From a virus, in IMG/VR virus record IMGVR_UViG_3300045988_129289: 64,000 nt of DNA. One strand, given 5' to 3'. The notes beneath the pieces are model-generated. The model was not told the origin of the DNA. It saw nothing but the letters and a program-made list of their open reading frames with translations, and made no database searches. The translations under genes were made by a program, and so were the position numbers. Within the stretch, counting starts at the first letter, position 1. Every line of letters starts with the position of its first letter. Of this stretch, positions 25,168-29,893 are shown piece by piece.

Positions 25168-25929
25168 ATGAAAGATTTTCAATTTTTAGATTACCACACG
25201 GAATATTCATGTAAAGGTGCCTTTAAGAAGGACATGGATGTAGAAGCATGCTTCTCATTCGTATTTAGACACACCGACGAGGAAAATGTAAGTGAAGAAT
25301 ATGAAGTTATCCTTTATAAGGGAACTGATTTTTCTAGAGAGAAGCATAATTCAAATTCGTGTCTCTTTACAAAGAAACAGATAAGAAACCATCTCAGACA
25401 AGCTCAAGGTATTTATCCATTCGATTTCTACATTACAGAAGTCACCAACTGGGGAGATGGTTATAATGTATTTAAGGTTCGCTTAAAACTCACTAACGTT
25501 CCTGGTACGTTTCATAAGTATCTTTTAACTTGGCTAAGATATATGTATGAGTACCCTTATAATGTTATCTTATACGATGCTTATAAGTTAAAAAAGGACC
25601 CATGCTTTAGGTTTACCTCTATGTCTGACTTGTTTAATCTTGTGCTAGGCTGTTTTAACGAAAATCCTAGAGATATTCATCAAATAGCTAGGAACCAAGT
25701 TAGCAAGACTATGTTAAAGAGAGACATTAGAGAGAAACTTCAGAATATCAGAATATTAAATAACGTTTATGATAAGTTGAAGAATAAAGGCAATAACAAC
25801 CAAATTCCAAATGAAGATGGAGATCTTACCACTTCTGATTTTGAATTTTGGGAAAGTGATGACATCTTCGAAAGACGAAGAAAACCAGTTTACATGAATG
25901 TTTATAAAGAAGTAATAAAGAAGAAATGA
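25168..25929 (+). CDS. hypothetical protein
   Basis: ORF track 253 aa. Confidence 0.55.
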   Translation: MKDFQFLDYHTEYSCKGAFKKDMDVEACFSFVFRHTDEENVSEEYEVILYKGTDFSREKHNSNSCLFTKKQIRNHLRQAQGIYPFDFYITEVTNWGDGYNVFKVRLKLTNVPGTFHKYLLTWLRYMYEYPYNVILYDAYKLKKDPCFRFTSMSDLFNLVLGCFNENPRDIHQIARNQVSKTMLKRDIREKLQNIRILNNVYDKLKNKGNNNQIPNEDGDLTTSDFEFWESDDIFERRRKPVYMNVYKEVIKKK

Positions 25930-26555
25930 AGATTTATGTTGTAGGTGGAGCTGATAACTACGTCAACTTCATTGAAAATGTGCAGCTTGTTGATAAACTT
26001 GAAGATGCACAATTAGTAGTATTCACCGGCGGAGAAGATGTCACACCTTCCCTTTATGGATGTAAGAAGCACAGAACTACTTATTCCAACCTTAGAAGAG
26101 ATCAGGCAGAACAGGCTATCTTCAATAAGATAGATTCAAAGAAACAGGTTTGTCTTGGAATTTGCCGTGGATCTCAATTTCTATGTGTGATGAATGGTGG
26201 CAAACTTGTTCAAAATGTAACAAGTCATGCTACTGGATTTACTCATGGGATAACTGATGGTGACAAGATTTATCAAATAACTTCTACCCACCATCAGATG
26301 CAGTATCCATTTAATCTTAATGGGGAAGATTATGATATCCTGTTTGTATCCTATGGAGTAGAGAGTGACTATTATGAGGGGGAGGGAATAGACCCTAACG
26401 TTGTTTCTGGAAGAGAGCCAGAAATTGTTTTATATCATAAGAAGGGATTGCCTAAGTGTCTCGCAGTACAAGGTCATCCTGAAATGATTCCTGATTCTCC
26501 CGTTGCTGAAATGATTAATAACCTTGTAAAAGATCTCGTAAATGAAATTGCGTAA
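25926..26555 (+). CDS. class I glutamine amidotransferase-like / C26 gamma-glutamyl hydrolase-like protein
   Basis: GICRGSQFL (nucleophile Cys elbow) and VQGHPE (His-Glu). Confidence 0.65.
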   Translation: MKIYVVGGADNYVNFIENVQLVDKLEDAQLVVFTGGEDVTPSLYGCKKHRTTYSNLRRDQAEQAIFNKIDSKKQVCLGICRGSQFLCVMNGGKLVQNVTSHATGFTHGITDGDKIYQITSTHHQMQYPFNLNGEDYDILFVSYGVESDYYEGEGIDPNVVSGREPEIVLYHKKGLPKCLAVQGHPEMIPDSPVAEMINNLVKDLVNEIA

Positions 26556-27335: not shown

Positions 27336-28682
27336 ATGTGTGGAATATTTGGTATTGTTACAAAGAGCACACGGTCTTTTGACTTTCCAACTTTCTGTAC
27401 ATTAGGTATCGCTAATGACAGTAGAGGAGGTGACTCTTGTGGATATTTTATTGATGGACACTACGAGTATGGAGCGAAAGGAAATGATAAGTGGTTTCAG
27501 TTCTTTTTCCAAGACAATAAGTTCCTTAATGAACTTAAAATGAGTTCAGTAGCTTTTGGTCATTGTAGAAAAGCATCTGTCGGAATCATTGACGAGACGA
27601 CTGCTCAGCCAGTGGTACTTACTGATGCTAATGGAAAGGTAGAATACGTTCTTATGCATAATGGAACTATCTATAATTATGAGGAGTTAGCTAATAAATA
27701 CATACCAGACATTGACATTACTGGTATGACTGATTCTCAAGTAATGGCTAGAATTTTCTATCGTTCTGGATACAAGGCACTTAGTGAGTACAACGGCGGA
27801 GCAGTGTTTGCAATTGCAGATTACCGTGGTGGAAAACCAAAGGTGTTGCTCTTTAAAGGAGCCTCTAAGAAAGACAAGTGGGACAAGAAGGAAACTGATG
27901 AACGCCCATTGTACTTCTGTGTTGATCCTGTAAAGGGAGAGTTAATCTTCTCTTCTATCGCTTCCTATTTGATGTCCCTTAGACATAAGCTCACAACCTG
28001 GATTTTAAATCCAAATTGTCTCTATGAGTTTAATGGTAGAGACCTAATTGCTGTCGAGGAAGTTTCTAGAGCTAATGCTTACCAAAGGAAGGAAACCATA
28101 TATGTAACTCCATCTAAATATGGTGGAAAATATTGGGGAGAATTTGGGCTGGAGGAAAGTGATGGCAGTCTTTATGACGATTTCATTTCAACTAATCAAG
28201 TAGATAATACTTATCATGGAAAGGGCAAAAAGCTTCAAGGACGAGTGCTACTTAATAAGTATGGAATGATGCTGGATGAAGCTCCTAAAAAGGCAACATA
28301 TAAGGAGATATTCTTTTGGGATGGAGTTGCTCTTAAGAATGTTGCATGCTTTCGATTTCTTACAGTCCTTAAGAAGGACAGTAAGCTCGAAGATAAAGAG
28401 TTTAATAAGAAGTTTAAGAACCTTATAAGGTACTTAAGTGTTGATGGTGTATATCATGAGAAGGATGTATGGTACAGAGCTACCTCTCCAACCAAGAGGA
28501 TTCCATTTACAGGAATACTGAACATGATTACATCAACTTCTTCTACAGAATTTTTTGCTGGAAGCAGAAGAACTACTAAATACGGTAGGACTTCTGATGA
28601 GGCATTTAGTTCTCTAGAGGAAGCTAAATTGGATGTTAATTTCAAAACAATTAAAGAAGAATGCAAGTCTTTGATGAAATAA
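27336..28682 (+). CDS. class II (Ntn) glutamine amidotransferase domain protein
   Basis: N-terminal MCGIFGI (Cys2 nucleophile as in PurF/AsnB/GlmS); 448 aa. Confidence 0.65.
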   Translation: MCGIFGIVTKSTRSFDFPTFCTLGIANDSRGGDSCGYFIDGHYEYGAKGNDKWFQFFFQDNKFLNELKMSSVAFGHCRKASVGIIDETTAQPVVLTDANGKVEYVLMHNGTIYNYEELANKYIPDIDITGMTDSQVMARIFYRSGYKALSEYNGGAVFAIADYRGGKPKVLLFKGASKKDKWDKKETDERPLYFCVDPVKGELIFSSIASYLMSLRHKLTTWILNPNCLYEFNGRDLIAVEEVSRANAYQRKETIYVTPSKYGGKYWGEFGLEESDGSLYDDFISTNQVDNTYHGKGKKLQGRVLLNKYGMMLDEAPKKATYKEIFFWDGVALKNVACFRFLTVLKKDSKLEDKEFNKKFKNLIRYLSVDGVYHEKDVWYRATSPTKRIPFTGILNMITSTSSTEFFAGSRRTTKYGRTSDEAFSSLEEAKLDVNFKTIKEECKSLMK

Positions 28683-29893
28683 CTAAAAGATGGGTGAGCT
28701 CTCGAAATTGTGCGAGGATTGTCATCCAACAACTTCCGGAACAAGTTATCTTCGGATATACTAGTAAGCCTGATAGAGTTGTTAGAGTCCTTATAACTAC
28801 TTCTAATGGATTTAATAACTACTTTGAAACGGATTTAAATCTATATAAGGGGAAACTCTTGTATAGTAGGAGAAATGGAATATACTTTTCTCCTATCAAT
28901 CACGATGAGGATTTTATACTCGCAGAACAACTCGTAAAGGGTCTCGGAGGTTTTCCCTACATCCTTACTAGAAGATATGAAGCTGTAGAGAATTTCGATG
29001 CTTTTAAGGGAAAGCAAGAAATTAAAGACCAGGAAACTTTGTATCCCTTAGCAAAATATTTAAAGTATACTTTTGGACTGGAGTTTGAAACATCTCAAGG
29101 ATATGTGCCTGAGGACGTATGTTATCGAGATGGATTAATCCCATTAAGGGATGGATCCATTACTGGACCAGAGTATTCTACCGTTGTATTGAAGGGAGGA
29201 GAAGGACTTTCTCTTCTTCATCAGCAAGTAGAGACGCTCAAAGAGTATACTAACTTTAATAAGGAATGCTCTCTACATGTTCATCTAGGAGGTTACCCTC
29301 TTAAGCCTGATACTATCTACAATCTTTATCTTGTATGTAGAACTATTGAATCTGAGCTAGAAAATATACTTCCTGCTTTGACTTTCAATAGTGCTAGATA
29401 TAAGGATAATGGTAAAGACTATTGTAAAAAGCTTGCTTTGTATAGTAGTTTTGAAGATATGTACTCGCATTTAGTAGGAAGGCAATTCTTCGGAAGTTTT
29501 ACCCAAGCTCATCCTGATGATAGGGAACGAAAAAGAAAGTGGAATATACCAACCCGTTATTATTGGTGTAACTTCATTAATGCTCTTTGCTATCAGGTAA
29601 ATAAAACCATTGAGTTCAGATTTCTTCGTCCAACCTATAGCTTTAAAAAGATCCTCCTATGGCTTTACATATTCAACGGCATTTTAAGATATGCCGAGGA
29701 GTACTATGTGCCGGGGAGTCGTGTTAATCTAGCTAGGATTATGAATAATTGCTATCCTTCTGATTTGGCAAAAGAACTTTGCCTTGGTATAAAGAAGCTT
29801 TGGGCACTTAGTGTAAATCAACGTGAAAACGGAGATCCTATTGGAGCTAATGTTTGGATGGAGGAAGAATTGTTTAACAGCTTAAAGATTTAA
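28661..29893 (+). CDS. GS-like carboxylate-amine ligase (Amidoligase_2-like) paralog 2
   Basis: GLEFETSQG, GPEYS, CSLHVHLG motifs parallel those of 26542-27333. Confidence 0.5.
   Translation: MQVFDEITKRWVSSRNCARIVIQQLPEQVIFGYTSKPDRVVRVLITTSNGFNNYFETDLNLYKGKLLYSRRNGIYFSPINHDEDFILAEQLVKGLGGFPYILTRRYEAVENFDAFKGKQEIKDQETLYPLAKYLKYTFGLEFETSQGYVPEDVCYRDGLIPLRDGSITGPEYSTVVLKGGEGLSLLHQQVETLKEYTNFNKECSLHVHLGGYPLKPDTIYNLYLVCRTIESELENILPALTFNSARYKDNGKDYCKKLALYSSFEDMYSHLVGRQFFGSFTQAHPDDRERKRKWNIPTRYYWCNFINALCYQVNKTIEFRFLRPTYSFKKILLWLYIFNGILRYAEEYYVPGSRVNLARIMNNCYPSDLAKELCLGIKKLWALSVNQRENGDPIGANVWMEEELFNSLKI

What the first reader, a model, noticed from the sequence alone, without database searches (positions are those of the whole stretch)
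25926..29893. Four-gene amide-bond chemistry cluster: GATase1-like, two Amidoligase_2-like ligases, Ntn glutamine amidotransferase
The genes are tightly packed and co-oriented, with overlapping stops and starts. The first has the GATase1/C26 Cys elbow GICRGSQFL plus the GHPE His-Glu. The second and fourth are paralogs sharing GLE(T/F)(D/E), PE(L/Y) and H(I/V)H(V/L)G motifs typical of glutamine-synthetase-fold carboxylate-amine ligases. The third starts MCGIFGI, a class II Ntn amidotransferase. Amidoligase_2 proteins are known to sit next to GATase-like thiol peptidases, and combinations of amidoligases with amidotransferases in phages have been proposed to build amino-acid or polyamine adducts on nucleotides/DNA or peptide tags. 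No thymidylate-synthase-like hydroxymethylase or hmU kinase is visible in this window, so the substrate is open.
Basis: partly seen in the sequence, partly recalled or inferred. Interest (0 to 1): 0.8.

Follow-up and report, generated by a model that had tools for sequence, protein, structure and literature searches.

The report
Known phage gamma-glutamyl amide-bond gene cassette
This is a real, tightly conserved set of four amide-bond enzymes (plus a fifth unknown gene) in a large crAss-related gut phage. It is a new example of a phage gene cassette first predicted in 2009-2013 to modify the bacterial cell wall, and its true function has still never been tested.

Summary
Four co-oriented, overlapping genes at 25926-29893 encode a GATase1/Peptidase_C26 enzyme, a phiEco32-type COOH-NH2 ligase (PF14395), a class II (Ntn) glutaminase with a private C-terminal domain, and an Amidoligase_2 (PF12224) with a glutamine-synthetase/GCS/PafA fold. 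Catalytic residues are at least 90% conserved across 74-82 diverged homologs.

The cluster is not new. It is the crAss-lineage version of the phage "gamma-glutamyl amide / peptidoglycan modification" cassette (Iyer 2009; Hardies 2013; Duhaime 2017), known from phiEco32, LUZ24/PaP3, 7-11, RIO-1 and CW02. In 89 loci with the COOH-NH2 ligase, Amidoligase_2 and GAT-II each co-occur in 88, GATase1 in 81 and an ATP-grasp in 64.

New details:
- A conserved fifth gene, u1 (25168-25929).
- A pairing rule: GAT-II sits next to Amidoligase_2 in 85/88 loci, and GATase1 next to the COOH-NH2 ligase in 64/81.
- No ATP-grasp or GGCT in this window.

The two ligases are not close paralogs. Nothing supports DNA modification. 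The substrate remains unknown; cell-envelope peptide is the leading guess. Interest is modest.

The parts
25168..25929 (+). u1: a conserved 253-aa protein of unknown function and the fifth operon member. Its stop overlaps the g1 start (ATGA).
   Evidence: ORF; junction. A u1 homolog lies immediately upstream of GATase1 in relatives at 49-62% identity. A u1-like gene is present in 57/89 loci, all of the crAss type. C28, R124 and E128 are invariant. No Pfam, PHROG, NCBIfam or PDB match. It is weakly related to two paralogous unknowns upstream of the cr108_1 cassette.
25926..26555 (+). g1: a class I glutamine amidotransferase / Peptidase_C26 (gamma-glutamyl hydrolase-like) enzyme with a Cys80-His184-Glu186 triad.
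   Evidence: Pfam Peptidase_C26 1.6e-16 and GATase 6.6e-7; phrog_7218 2.5e-36. PDB 3fij at 1e-4. The triad is at least 90% conserved in 76 homologs. The nearest NCBIfam families, all below threshold, are gamma-glutamyl-CDP-amidate hydrolase and PuuD.
26542..27333 (+). g2: a phiEco32-type COOH-NH2 ligase (PF14395), an ATP-dependent carboxylate-amine ligase.
   Evidence: Pfam PF14395 at 41.7 bits (cut-off 25); phrog_3815 at 1.3e-65 over the full length. 318 phage records by tblastn. D11, E13, E58, H145, H147, R182, R183, E200 and R202 are at least 90% conserved in 74 homologs. The fold was not tested by structure here.
27336..28085 (+). g3 N-terminal domain (residues 1-250): a class II (Ntn) glutaminase with Cys2 as nucleophile.
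28173..28682 (+). g3 C-terminal domain (residues 280-448): a confident alpha+beta domain of unknown function that occurs only in this protein family.
28661..29893 (+). g4: Amidoligase_2 (PF12224), with a glutamine-synthetase/GCS/PafA-fold ligase core (residues about 130-410) preceded by a lineage-specific beta-rich N-domain (residues 1-125).
29900..30481 (+). d1: a 193-aa unknown that follows g4 after 6 nt. It is lineage-specific and not part of the conserved core.
   Evidence: ORF; weak phrog_11581 match. Found in only 8/89 loci, all close relatives.
30558..32906 (+). An associated pair, not part of the core: a hydrophobic membrane protein (30558-31079) and an SPFH/Band_7 flotillin-like protein with a long coiled coil (31098-32906).
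   Evidence: Pfam Band_7 8e-21; NCBIfam FloT 1.3e-38, below threshold. An SPFH gene lies within 10 kb of the cassette in 14/89 loci, including the distant PaP3-like phage MHN1. It is absent next to the cassette in L008 and many other loci.

Best explanation
The cluster is the crAss-lineage version of an already described cassette that occurs essentially only in phages. [quoted passage not shown]

Shown here:
- All four enzymes carry intact catalytic residues and are under strong purifying selection.
- They are expressed from a tightly coupled, standard-code operon, unlike the TAG-recoded and presumably late blocks of the same genome.
- They are organised as two glutaminase/ligase pairs: GATase1(C26)+COOH-NH2 ligase, and GAT-II+Amidoligase_2.

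Inferred mechanism: each GS/GCS-fold ligase uses ATP to activate a carboxylate as an acyl-phosphate. In every characterised member of the superfamily this is the gamma-carboxylate of a glutamate. The ligase then joins it to an amine or to ammonia. The paired thiol glutaminase acts on the same gamma-glutamyl/glutamine amide bond, either releasing NH3 from glutamine for the ligase (a split amidotransferase) or trimming the gamma-glutamyl group again (a writer/eraser or transient-handle pair, as in PuuA/PuuD, EgtA/EgtC and PafA/Dop).

The acceptor is not known. The leading candidate is a cell-envelope peptide, namely the peptidoglycan stem peptide or its cytoplasmic precursors. This would alter the infected cell's wall, for example to block superinfection or to tune cross-linking and lysis.

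I put about 0.9 on the identity and general chemistry, and about 0.3 on the envelope target.
For: Family and fold:
- Catalytic residues are at least 90% conserved in 74-82 homologs spanning 35-98% identity.

Conservation of the cassette:
- Among 89 loci with the COOH-NH2 ligase, Amidoligase_2 occurs in 88, GAT-II in 88, GATase1 in 81 and an ATP-grasp in 64.
- The same gene set is present in cr108_1, phiEco32-like IME267, LAh_8, PaP3-like MHN1 and CW02.
- The family is essentially phage-restricted. It was found in only 23 contigs, nearly all phage-sized MAG contigs with inconsistent taxonomic labels, among 185,579 species genomes.

Pairing:
- GAT-II and Amidoligase_2 are adjacent in 85/88 loci, in both gene orders.
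- GATase1 and the COOH-NH2 ligase are adjacent in 64/81 loci.
- The two ligases are never adjacent.
- The private g3 C-domain and g4 N-domain co-vary: both present in 43 loci, both absent in 43, discordant in 3.

Expression: there is no in-frame TAG in the cluster, while neighbouring blocks have 9-21 per ORF. SU10 proteomics lists the ATP-grasp, GATase and GGCT homologs among early gene products.

Literature: relay the published cell-wall/superinfection hypothesis and the gamma-glutamyl-amide description.

Envelope context in this window:
- Glucosaminidase at 21227.
- SPFH plus a membrane protein immediately downstream.
- OmpA-like protein at 35644.
- YkuD L,D-transpeptidase at 40472.
- Amidase_3 and a glucosaminidase lie near the cassette in L008.

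Hosts: all cultured hosts listed are Gram-negative. That they share mDAP-type peptidoglycan is established knowledge.
Against: - No experiment on any member of the cassette was found in six literature searches. The cell-wall idea is itself a prediction.
- None of the proteins has a Mur-ligase, UDP-binding or other recognisable peptidoglycan-precursor domain.
- In most other phages the cassette lies among early/replication genes, just before the primase/helicase, not among envelope genes.
- The envelope neighbours here are not conserved with the cassette; SPFH occurs in only 14/89 loci.
- The window lacks the ATP-grasp and GGCT found in many relatives, so this lineage may run a reduced pathway.
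- The sequence data cannot separate the ammonia-donor role from the hydrolase role of the two glutaminases. The same glutamine-binding residues serve both roles in PurF and in EgtC.
- The g2 fold rests on Pfam/PHROG matches and motifs only.
- The locus sample is dominated by crAss-type phages, so the adjacency and co-variation counts are not phylogenetically independent.
Confidence: 0.55

Rival explanations
1. Protein or peptide tagging. The ligases attach glutamate or a glutamate-terminated peptide through an isopeptide bond to a host or phage protein, in a pupylation-like or polyglutamylation-like way. The glutaminases act as deamidases or erasers, as Dop does. u1 could be the target or an adaptor.
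Against: There is no Pup-like small ORF. The genes from 24123 to 32906 are packed with gaps of at most 77 nt, leaving no room for one. No small gene is conserved across cassette types. u1 is restricted to crAss-type cassettes, while the enzymes are universal. Fold similarity to PafA/Dop is no higher than to small-molecule ligases.
Confidence: 0.2
2. Small-molecule metabolism. The cassette makes or remodels a soluble gamma-glutamyl compound to reprogramme host metabolism or to supply DNA counter-ions. Candidates are a glutathione- or NAGGN-like amidated peptide, or gamma-glutamyl-polyamine conjugates as in the Puu pathway.
Against: All NCBIfam hits are far below their curated cut-offs. The cassette is phage-restricted with no cellular counterpart pathway, which is unusual for auxiliary metabolic genes. 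Private docking-type domains on g3 and g4 and a conserved unknown partner are more typical of a dedicated macromolecular system. The 'nitrogen metabolism' claim is itself speculative.
Confidence: 0.2
3. One reading: the enzymes build amino-acid or polyamine adducts on nucleotides or on phage DNA (hypermodification) to evade restriction.
Against: No thymidylate-synthase-like hydroxymethylase, hmU kinase, aGPT-Pplase or transglycosylase was found among the window's proteins. The little-finger similarity is at the same level as de novo designed ferredoxin-like proteins, so it reflects generic topology. Virion DNA of the cassette-bearing phage tf was cut by RsaI, HpaI, EcoRV, SmaI and HaeIII and cloned normally. 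The characterised thymidine hypermodification pathways, as I recall them, do not use GS-fold ligases.
Confidence: 0.05

Closest known systems
The phiEco32 / LUZ24-PaP3 / RIO-1 / CW02 phage cassette: 'COOH-NH2 ligase type 2 system' (Iyer et al. 2009), 'gamma-glutamyl amide linkage operon' (Hardies et al. 2013, 2016), 'peptidoglycan modification cassette' (Duhaime et al. 2017)
   Same: It has the same three universal enzymes (PF14395 ligase, PF12224 Amidoligase_2, GAT-II) plus GATase1. The operon is tight and co-directional, restricted to phages, and made of standard-code, non-structural genes.
   Different: The window has no ATP-grasp or GGCT. The gene order is GAT1-lig-GAT2-Amlig2, not lig-(phrog_4877)-Amlig2-GAT2. 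It has the crAss-specific u1 gene instead of the phrog_13102/4877 companions. g3 and g4 carry private extra domains. The host phage is a roughly 175-kb TAG-recoding, crAss-related gut phage rather than a 45-90-kb podovirus of Proteobacteria.
The cassette of uncultured crAss-like phage cr108_1 (MT774385, Steigviridae), annotated in GenBank
   Same: The order u1-like, GATase1, COOH-NH2 ligase, GAT-II, Amidoligase_2 is identical, with 42-49% identity over the catalytic cores.
   Different: cr108_1 has an ATP-grasp and two u1 paralogs upstream and lies inside the replication module. The g3 C-domain and the g4 N-domain are not recognisably the same.
PuuA/PuuD, EgtA/EgtC and PafA/Dop: pairs of a GS/GCS-fold ligase with an enzyme that cleaves the gamma-glutamyl or glutamine amide
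   Different: There is no significant sequence membership in any of these families; all hits are below the curated cut-offs. The substrates are unknown. The analogy is one of working principle, not of family membership.
MurT/GatD and AsnB/LtsA peptidoglycan amidotransferases
   Same: These are glutamine-dependent enzymes, of GATase1 and GAT-II type respectively, that amidate the D-iGlu and mDAP carboxylates of the stem peptide. This is the chemistry the published hypothesis would require (established knowledge).
   Different: There is no Mur-ligase domain and no AsnB-type PP-loop synthetase domain here. The ATP-using partners are GS-fold ligases instead.

Membership tests
Phage phiEco32-type gamma-glutamyl-amide / 'peptidoglycan modification' cassette | A PF14395 COOH-NH2 ligase | tested here: met
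   g2 scores 41.7 bits against a cut-off of 25; phrog_3815 matches at 1.3e-65 over the full length.
Phage phiEco32-type gamma-glutamyl-amide / 'peptidoglycan modification' cassette | An Amidoligase_2 (PF12224) and a class II GATase encoded next to it | tested here: met
Phage phiEco32-type gamma-glutamyl-amide / 'peptidoglycan modification' cassette | A RimK-like ATP-grasp ligase in the cassette | tested here: not met
   No ATP-grasp hit anywhere in the 64-kb window, even with TAG read through. It is present in 64/89 loci overall but absent next to the cassette in this sub-lineage. It could lie in the unseen roughly 111 kb of the genome.
Phage phiEco32-type gamma-glutamyl-amide / 'peptidoglycan modification' cassette | A gamma-glutamyl cyclotransferase (AIG2/GGCT) | tested here: not met
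   No hit in the window. It is present in only 20/89 loci, so it is an accessory rather than a defining feature.
Phage phiEco32-type gamma-glutamyl-amide / 'peptidoglycan modification' cassette | It modifies peptidoglycan or the cell surface (the proposed function) | not testable with these tools
   This is only a published prediction. No experimental paper was found.
Class I GATase / Peptidase_C26 | A Cys-His-Glu triad on the nucleophile-elbow fold | tested here: met
   Pfam Peptidase_C26 at 61 bits. C80, H184 and E186 are at least 90% conserved in 76 homologs.
Class II (Ntn) glutamine amidotransferase | An N-terminal Cys nucleophile plus the Arg, Asn-Gly and Asp residues of the glutamine site | tested here: met
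Class II (Ntn) glutamine amidotransferase | A fused synthase/acceptor domain of a known type (PRTase, SIS, PP-loop or GltS) | tested here: not met
   The C-domain (residues 280-448) matches no known synthase domain and occurs only in this family.
GS / GCS / PafA carboxylate-amine ligase superfamily | The GS-type catalytic fold with acidic metal ligands, HxH and E-x-R motifs | tested here: met
GS / GCS / PafA carboxylate-amine ligase superfamily | The same fold for g2 | tested here: inconclusive
   The Pfam PF14395 hit covers only residues 142-210. An analogous motif series (D/E-x-E, E, HxH, E-Y-R) is conserved. hhalign against the g4 family gives only E = 0.002 and probability 14%. The PDB profile search gives chance-level hits.
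5-hmdU-based DNA hypermodification pathways | A thymidylate-synthase-like hydroxymethylase, a 5-hmdU DNA kinase and an aGPT-Pplase | tested here: not met
   None was found among the window ORFs scanned, which were the larger ORFs and not every one of at least 100 aa. Only 64 of about 175 kb is visible.
Pupylation-like tagging | A small tag protein ending in GGQ or GGE encoded with the ligase | tested here: not met
   No small ORF fits between the packed genes from 24123 to 32906. No small gene is conserved across cassette types.
MurT/GatD or AsnB-type peptidoglycan amidotransferases | A Mur-ligase domain or a PP-loop synthetase domain | tested here: not met
   No such Pfam or NCBIfam domain in any cluster protein. 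The g3 match to AsnB is confined to the glutaminase domain.

The most novel reading that the evidence does not exclude
The cassette consists of two obligate glutaminase-ligase heteromers that form a previously unrecognised class of split, glutamine-dependent amide synthetases built on the glutamine-synthetase fold. To my knowledge, no GS/GCS-fold enzyme is known to take NH3 from a dedicated glutaminase subunit. In this class the private g3 C-domain would dock on the private g4 N-domain. In this gut-phage lineage the two units would amidate or gamma-glutamylate the two free carboxylates of the host peptidoglycan stem peptide (D-iGlu and mDAP). Together with the phage's own YkuD L,D-transpeptidase, that would re-wire cell-wall cross-linking during infection.
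Probability: 0.1. Interest if true: 0.75.

Novelty: new member of a known kind. Interest (0 to 1): 0.35.

Why it matters
The cassette is among the most widely shared non-replicative, non-structural gene sets in virulent phages of Gram-negative bacteria. It was found in 318 deposited phage genomes, in 345 viral contigs and in hundreds of gut metagenome clusters. More than fifteen years after it was first predicted, nobody has shown what it does.

This window shows that the cassette is also fixed in a large, abundant, TAG-recoding lineage of crAss-related human-gut phages. It also adds three things:
- A minimal four-enzyme core that persists without the ATP-grasp and GGCT.
- A strict pairing of each glutaminase with one ligase.
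- Lineage-specific docking-type domains and a fifth conserved partner.

These constraints make testable predictions (two heteromeric enzymes; a gamma-glutamyl or glutamine amide product) that could be checked in cultured carriers such as phiEco32, SU10, LUZ24 or Bas92. In itself, however, the finding is a re-discovery of an annotated system, not a new one.

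Tried and rejected
1. Close paralogy of g2 and g4. Rejected: BLASTP gives E = 0.13, and hhalign gives probability 1.4% (narrow alignments) or 14% (broad).

2. u1 as a divergent ATP-grasp, GATase, or homolog of the phrog_13102/4877 companions of phiEco32-type cassettes. Rejected: hhalign probability is 0.1% for all. The PDB profile search found nothing.

4. 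A cellular homolog or context for the cassette. Rejected: the genome-contig scan returned only 23 contigs, nearly all phage-sized MAG contigs with inconsistent taxonomic labels.

5. A link to anti-phage defence models. No PADLOC hit.

6. Operon boundaries from sigma-70 promoter and terminator scans. No excess over shuffled sequence, so uninformative.

7. Nucleotide-level relatives among deposited phages. None.

8. The primary papers, Iyer 2009 and Hardies 2013. Not held in the library, so their content is cited only as relayed by other papers.

9. Sequence-profile searches of the g2 and g4 families against PDB. Chance-level only.

10. GGCT-ATP-grasp as a third strict ligase/cleaver pair. Only loosely supported: they co-occur in 19/20 loci, and the ATP-grasp is the nearest module gene in 12/20.

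Full report
OBSERVATION

The four ORFs are real and lie exactly where stated: g1 25926-26555, g2 26542-27333, g3 27336-28682 and g4 28661-29893. All are on the + strand, start with ATG and end in TAA. g1/g2 overlap by 14 nt, g2/g3 are 2 nt apart, and g3/g4 overlap by 22 nt. An upstream ORF, u1 (25168-25929, 253 aa), ends in an ATGA overlap with the g1 start. The quoted motifs are all present.

WHAT EACH PROTEIN IS

- g1 matches Peptidase_C26 (1.6e-16), GATase (6.6e-7) and phrog_7218 (2.5e-36). Its Cys80/His184/Glu186 triad is at least 90% conserved in 76 homologs.
- g2 is not an Amidoligase_2. It is a member of PF14395, the 'phage phiEco32-like COOH.NH2 ligase type 2' family (41.7 bits against a cut-off of 25; phrog_3815 at 1.3e-65 over the full length).
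- g2 and g4 are not close paralogs. BLASTP gives E = 0.13. hhalign gives probability 1.4% with narrow alignments. With diverse alignments it gives E = 0.002 and probability 14% over 251 collinear columns. This fits remote superfamily kinship at most.

THE GENOME

The window is phage DNA: about 35% GC, all genes on one strand, and 21-22 tRNAs. TAG is read as sense in two blocks, 2-3997 and 36938-40456, with 9-21 in-frame TAGs per ORF. A tRNA(CUA) lies at 4556-4630. The cluster contains no in-frame TAG, so it belongs to the standard-code part of the genome. By analogy with other recoded phages, that part is expressed before the late genes (inference).

An IMG/VR contig of 175,144 bp carries g2 at 98% identity. 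g3, g4 and u1 have hundreds of full-length homologs on contigs of 140-180 kb. No deposited phage matches at nucleotide level. The helicase is 35-37% identical to unannotated human-gut phages and 25-27% identical to Crassvirales. This is therefore a large, abundant, distant crAss-related gut phage.

THE CLUSTER IS A KNOWN CASSETTE

tblastn with g2 finds 318 deposited phages. They include crAss-like cr108_1, phiEco32-like phages, LUZ24/PaP3-like phages, 7-11-like phages, Aeromonas LAh_8, Vibrio phages and Salinivibrio CW02. Their neighbourhoods hold the same enzymes:
- a COOH-NH2 ligase, Amidoligase_2 and GAT-II, always;
- GATase1 or an unknown protein of about 200 aa;
- a RimK-like ATP-grasp;
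- often a gamma-glutamyl cyclotransferase (GGCT).

With my own HMMs over 89 loci, the COOH-NH2 ligase co-occurs with the other components as follows:

| Component | Loci (of 89) |
|---|---|
| Amidoligase_2 | 88 |
| GAT-II | 88 |
| GATase1 | 81 |
| ATP-grasp | 64 |
| u1-like genes | 57 |
| GGCT | 20 |
| SPFH | 14 |

The single locus without Amidoligase_2 and GAT-II is a contig that ends at the ligase. Across 185,579 species genomes the ligase family appears in only 23 contigs, nearly all of them phage-sized MAG contigs with inconsistent taxonomic labels, so it is effectively restricted to phages.

The literature already describes the set:
- Papers citing Iyer et al. 2009 say the phiEco32 amidoligase/GATase genes were proposed to modify the cell wall and prevent superinfection.
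- Duhaime et al. 2017 call it a seven-gene 'peptidoglycan modification cassette' conserved in RIO-1, phiEco32, 7-11, PA11, tf, MR299-2, LUZ24, PaP3 and CW02.
- The GenBank record of cr108_1 annotates the crAss-type version.
- SU10 proteomics lists the ATP-grasp, GATase and GGCT homologs as early gene products.

I found no experimental test of function. The two primary papers were not available to read.

WHAT IS SPECIFIC HERE

1. u1 is a conserved fifth member in crAss-type cassettes. It has invariant Cys28, Arg124 and Glu128 and no detectable relatives.

2. The window has no ATP-grasp or GGCT, even when TAG is read through. Sister crAss-type loci have an ATP-grasp directly before u1.

3. The genes form two pairs:
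   - GAT-II and Amidoligase_2 are immediate neighbours in 85/88 loci, whichever comes first.
   - GATase1 and the COOH-NH2 ligase are neighbours in 64/81 loci.
   - The two ligases are never adjacent.

4. The private g3 C-domain and the private g4 N-domain are both present in 43 loci and both absent in 43, with 3 discordant. This is confounded by phylogeny, but it is what a docking interface would give.

5. The local context is rich in envelope functions:
   - glucosaminidase at 21227;
   - a membrane protein plus an SPFH/flotillin-like protein directly downstream;
   - an OmpA-like protein at 35644;
   - a YkuD L,D-transpeptidase at 40472;
   - a recoded NlpC/P60 + tail-lysozyme protein at 1397.
   
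   These neighbours are not conserved with the cassette.

MECHANISM

Shown: four catalytically intact enzymes in a translationally coupled operon, arranged as glutaminase/ligase pairs.

Established knowledge: characterised GS/GCS/PafA-fold ligases activate the gamma-carboxylate of a glutamate as an acyl-phosphate and join it to ammonia or an amine. C26 and Ntn glutaminases cleave the gamma-amide of glutamine or of gamma-glutamyl-X.

Inference: the cassette makes and edits gamma-glutamyl- or glutamine-type amide bonds on an unknown acceptor. Each pair is one of two things:
- a split glutamine-dependent amide synthetase, in which the glutaminase supplies the ammonia; or
- a writer/eraser or transient-handle pair, as in PuuA/PuuD, EgtA/EgtC and PafA/Dop.

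Sub-threshold NCBIfam hits put g1 nearest to gamma-glutamyl-X hydrolases and g3 nearest to AsnB-type amidotransferases. The data cannot decide between the two models.

For the target I rank the candidates as follows:
- cell-envelope peptide, i.e. the peptidoglycan stem or its precursors, about 0.3;
- protein tagging, about 0.2;
- a soluble gamma-glutamyl metabolite, about 0.2;
- DNA or nucleotide modification, about 0.05.

The DNA idea has three points against it. No base-activating enzymes are in the window. The only DNA-like structural hint is at the level of generic folds. DNA of the cassette-bearing phage tf is cut by five ordinary restriction enzymes.

VERDICT

The cluster is a new member (a crAss-lineage, reduced, five-gene version) of an already described but functionally untested phage cassette. 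It is worth a note for the pairing rule, the fifth gene and the private domains. It is not a new kind of system.

Noticed in passing
window 2-3997 and 36938-40456; tRNA at 4556-4630: TAG is read as a sense codon in two blocks of ORFs (9-21 in-frame TAGs each), while the rest of the window uses the standard code. An amber-suppressor tRNA(CUA) is encoded at 4556-4630. This pattern is typical of stop-codon-recoded crAss-like phages.
   Followed up: partly
window 36826-36916: ARAGORN reports a 91-nt tRNA-like gene with an undetermined two-base anticodon, right in front of the second TAG-recoded block. Rfam's tRNA model did not call it.
   Followed up: no
window 22095-22346: A group I catalytic intron (Rfam RF00028, 87 bits, full length) lies just downstream of the glucosaminidase ORF (21227-21748). 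The interrupted gene and its exons were not worked out.
   Followed up: no
L011, L018, L035, L038, L057, L061, L064, L065, L080: In several related phages the COOH-NH2 ligase, GATase1 or Amidoligase_2 gene is split into two ORFs by inserts of about 0.3-1.2 kb. These are probably introns or homing elements inside the cassette genes. The window itself has HNH endonuclease ORFs at 10479-11204 and 33024-33788.
   Followed up: no
window 40472-41272: A phage-encoded YkuD_2 L,D-transpeptidase (Pfam 5.4e-26), which is unusual for a phage. With the OmpA-like protein (35644-36645) and the glucosaminidase (21227-21748), it gives this genome region a cell-wall theme.
   Followed up: partly
window 30558-32906; L004 2997-3821: A hydrophobic membrane protein and an SPFH/Band_7 flotillin-like protein with a roughly 300-residue coiled coil follow the cassette. 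An SPFH gene lies within 10 kb of the cassette in 14/89 loci, including the distant PaP3-like Pseudomonas phage MHN1.
   Followed up: partly
window 43438-44988: A nicotinamide phosphoribosyltransferase (NAPRTase 1.5e-32 plus NAMPT_N), i.e. a phage NAD+ salvage gene. It may be part of an NAD-reconstitution counter-defence pathway. The two following ORFs (44985-46188) have no Pfam hit.
   Followed up: no
window 16262-20096: A 593-aa DUF7788/DUF2828 protein is followed by an extra tRNA (18111-18183, Rfam only) and a 481-aa AAA ATPase. This pair is conserved upstream of the cassette in L006. Its function is unknown.
   Followed up: no
window 24123-25103: u2, the gene before u1, ends in an approximately 100-residue Met/Gly/Asn-rich low-complexity region with an acidic tail (...EKETEEDIED). 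Its listed GTG start at 24057 overlaps a hairpin after tRNA-Ser. Homologs indicate that the true start is the ATG at 24123.
   Followed up: partly
L004 5938-6819 (GenBank PV730305.1): The Pseudomonas phage MHN1 record annotates its 'ligase-like' gene on the minus strand. The real COOH-NH2 ligase ORF is on the plus strand at L004 5980-6780.
   Followed up: yes
window 14958-14995: A match to the Rfam abiF RNA motif (RF03085, 50 bits against a gathering score of 37) within the tRNA-rich region.
   Followed up: no
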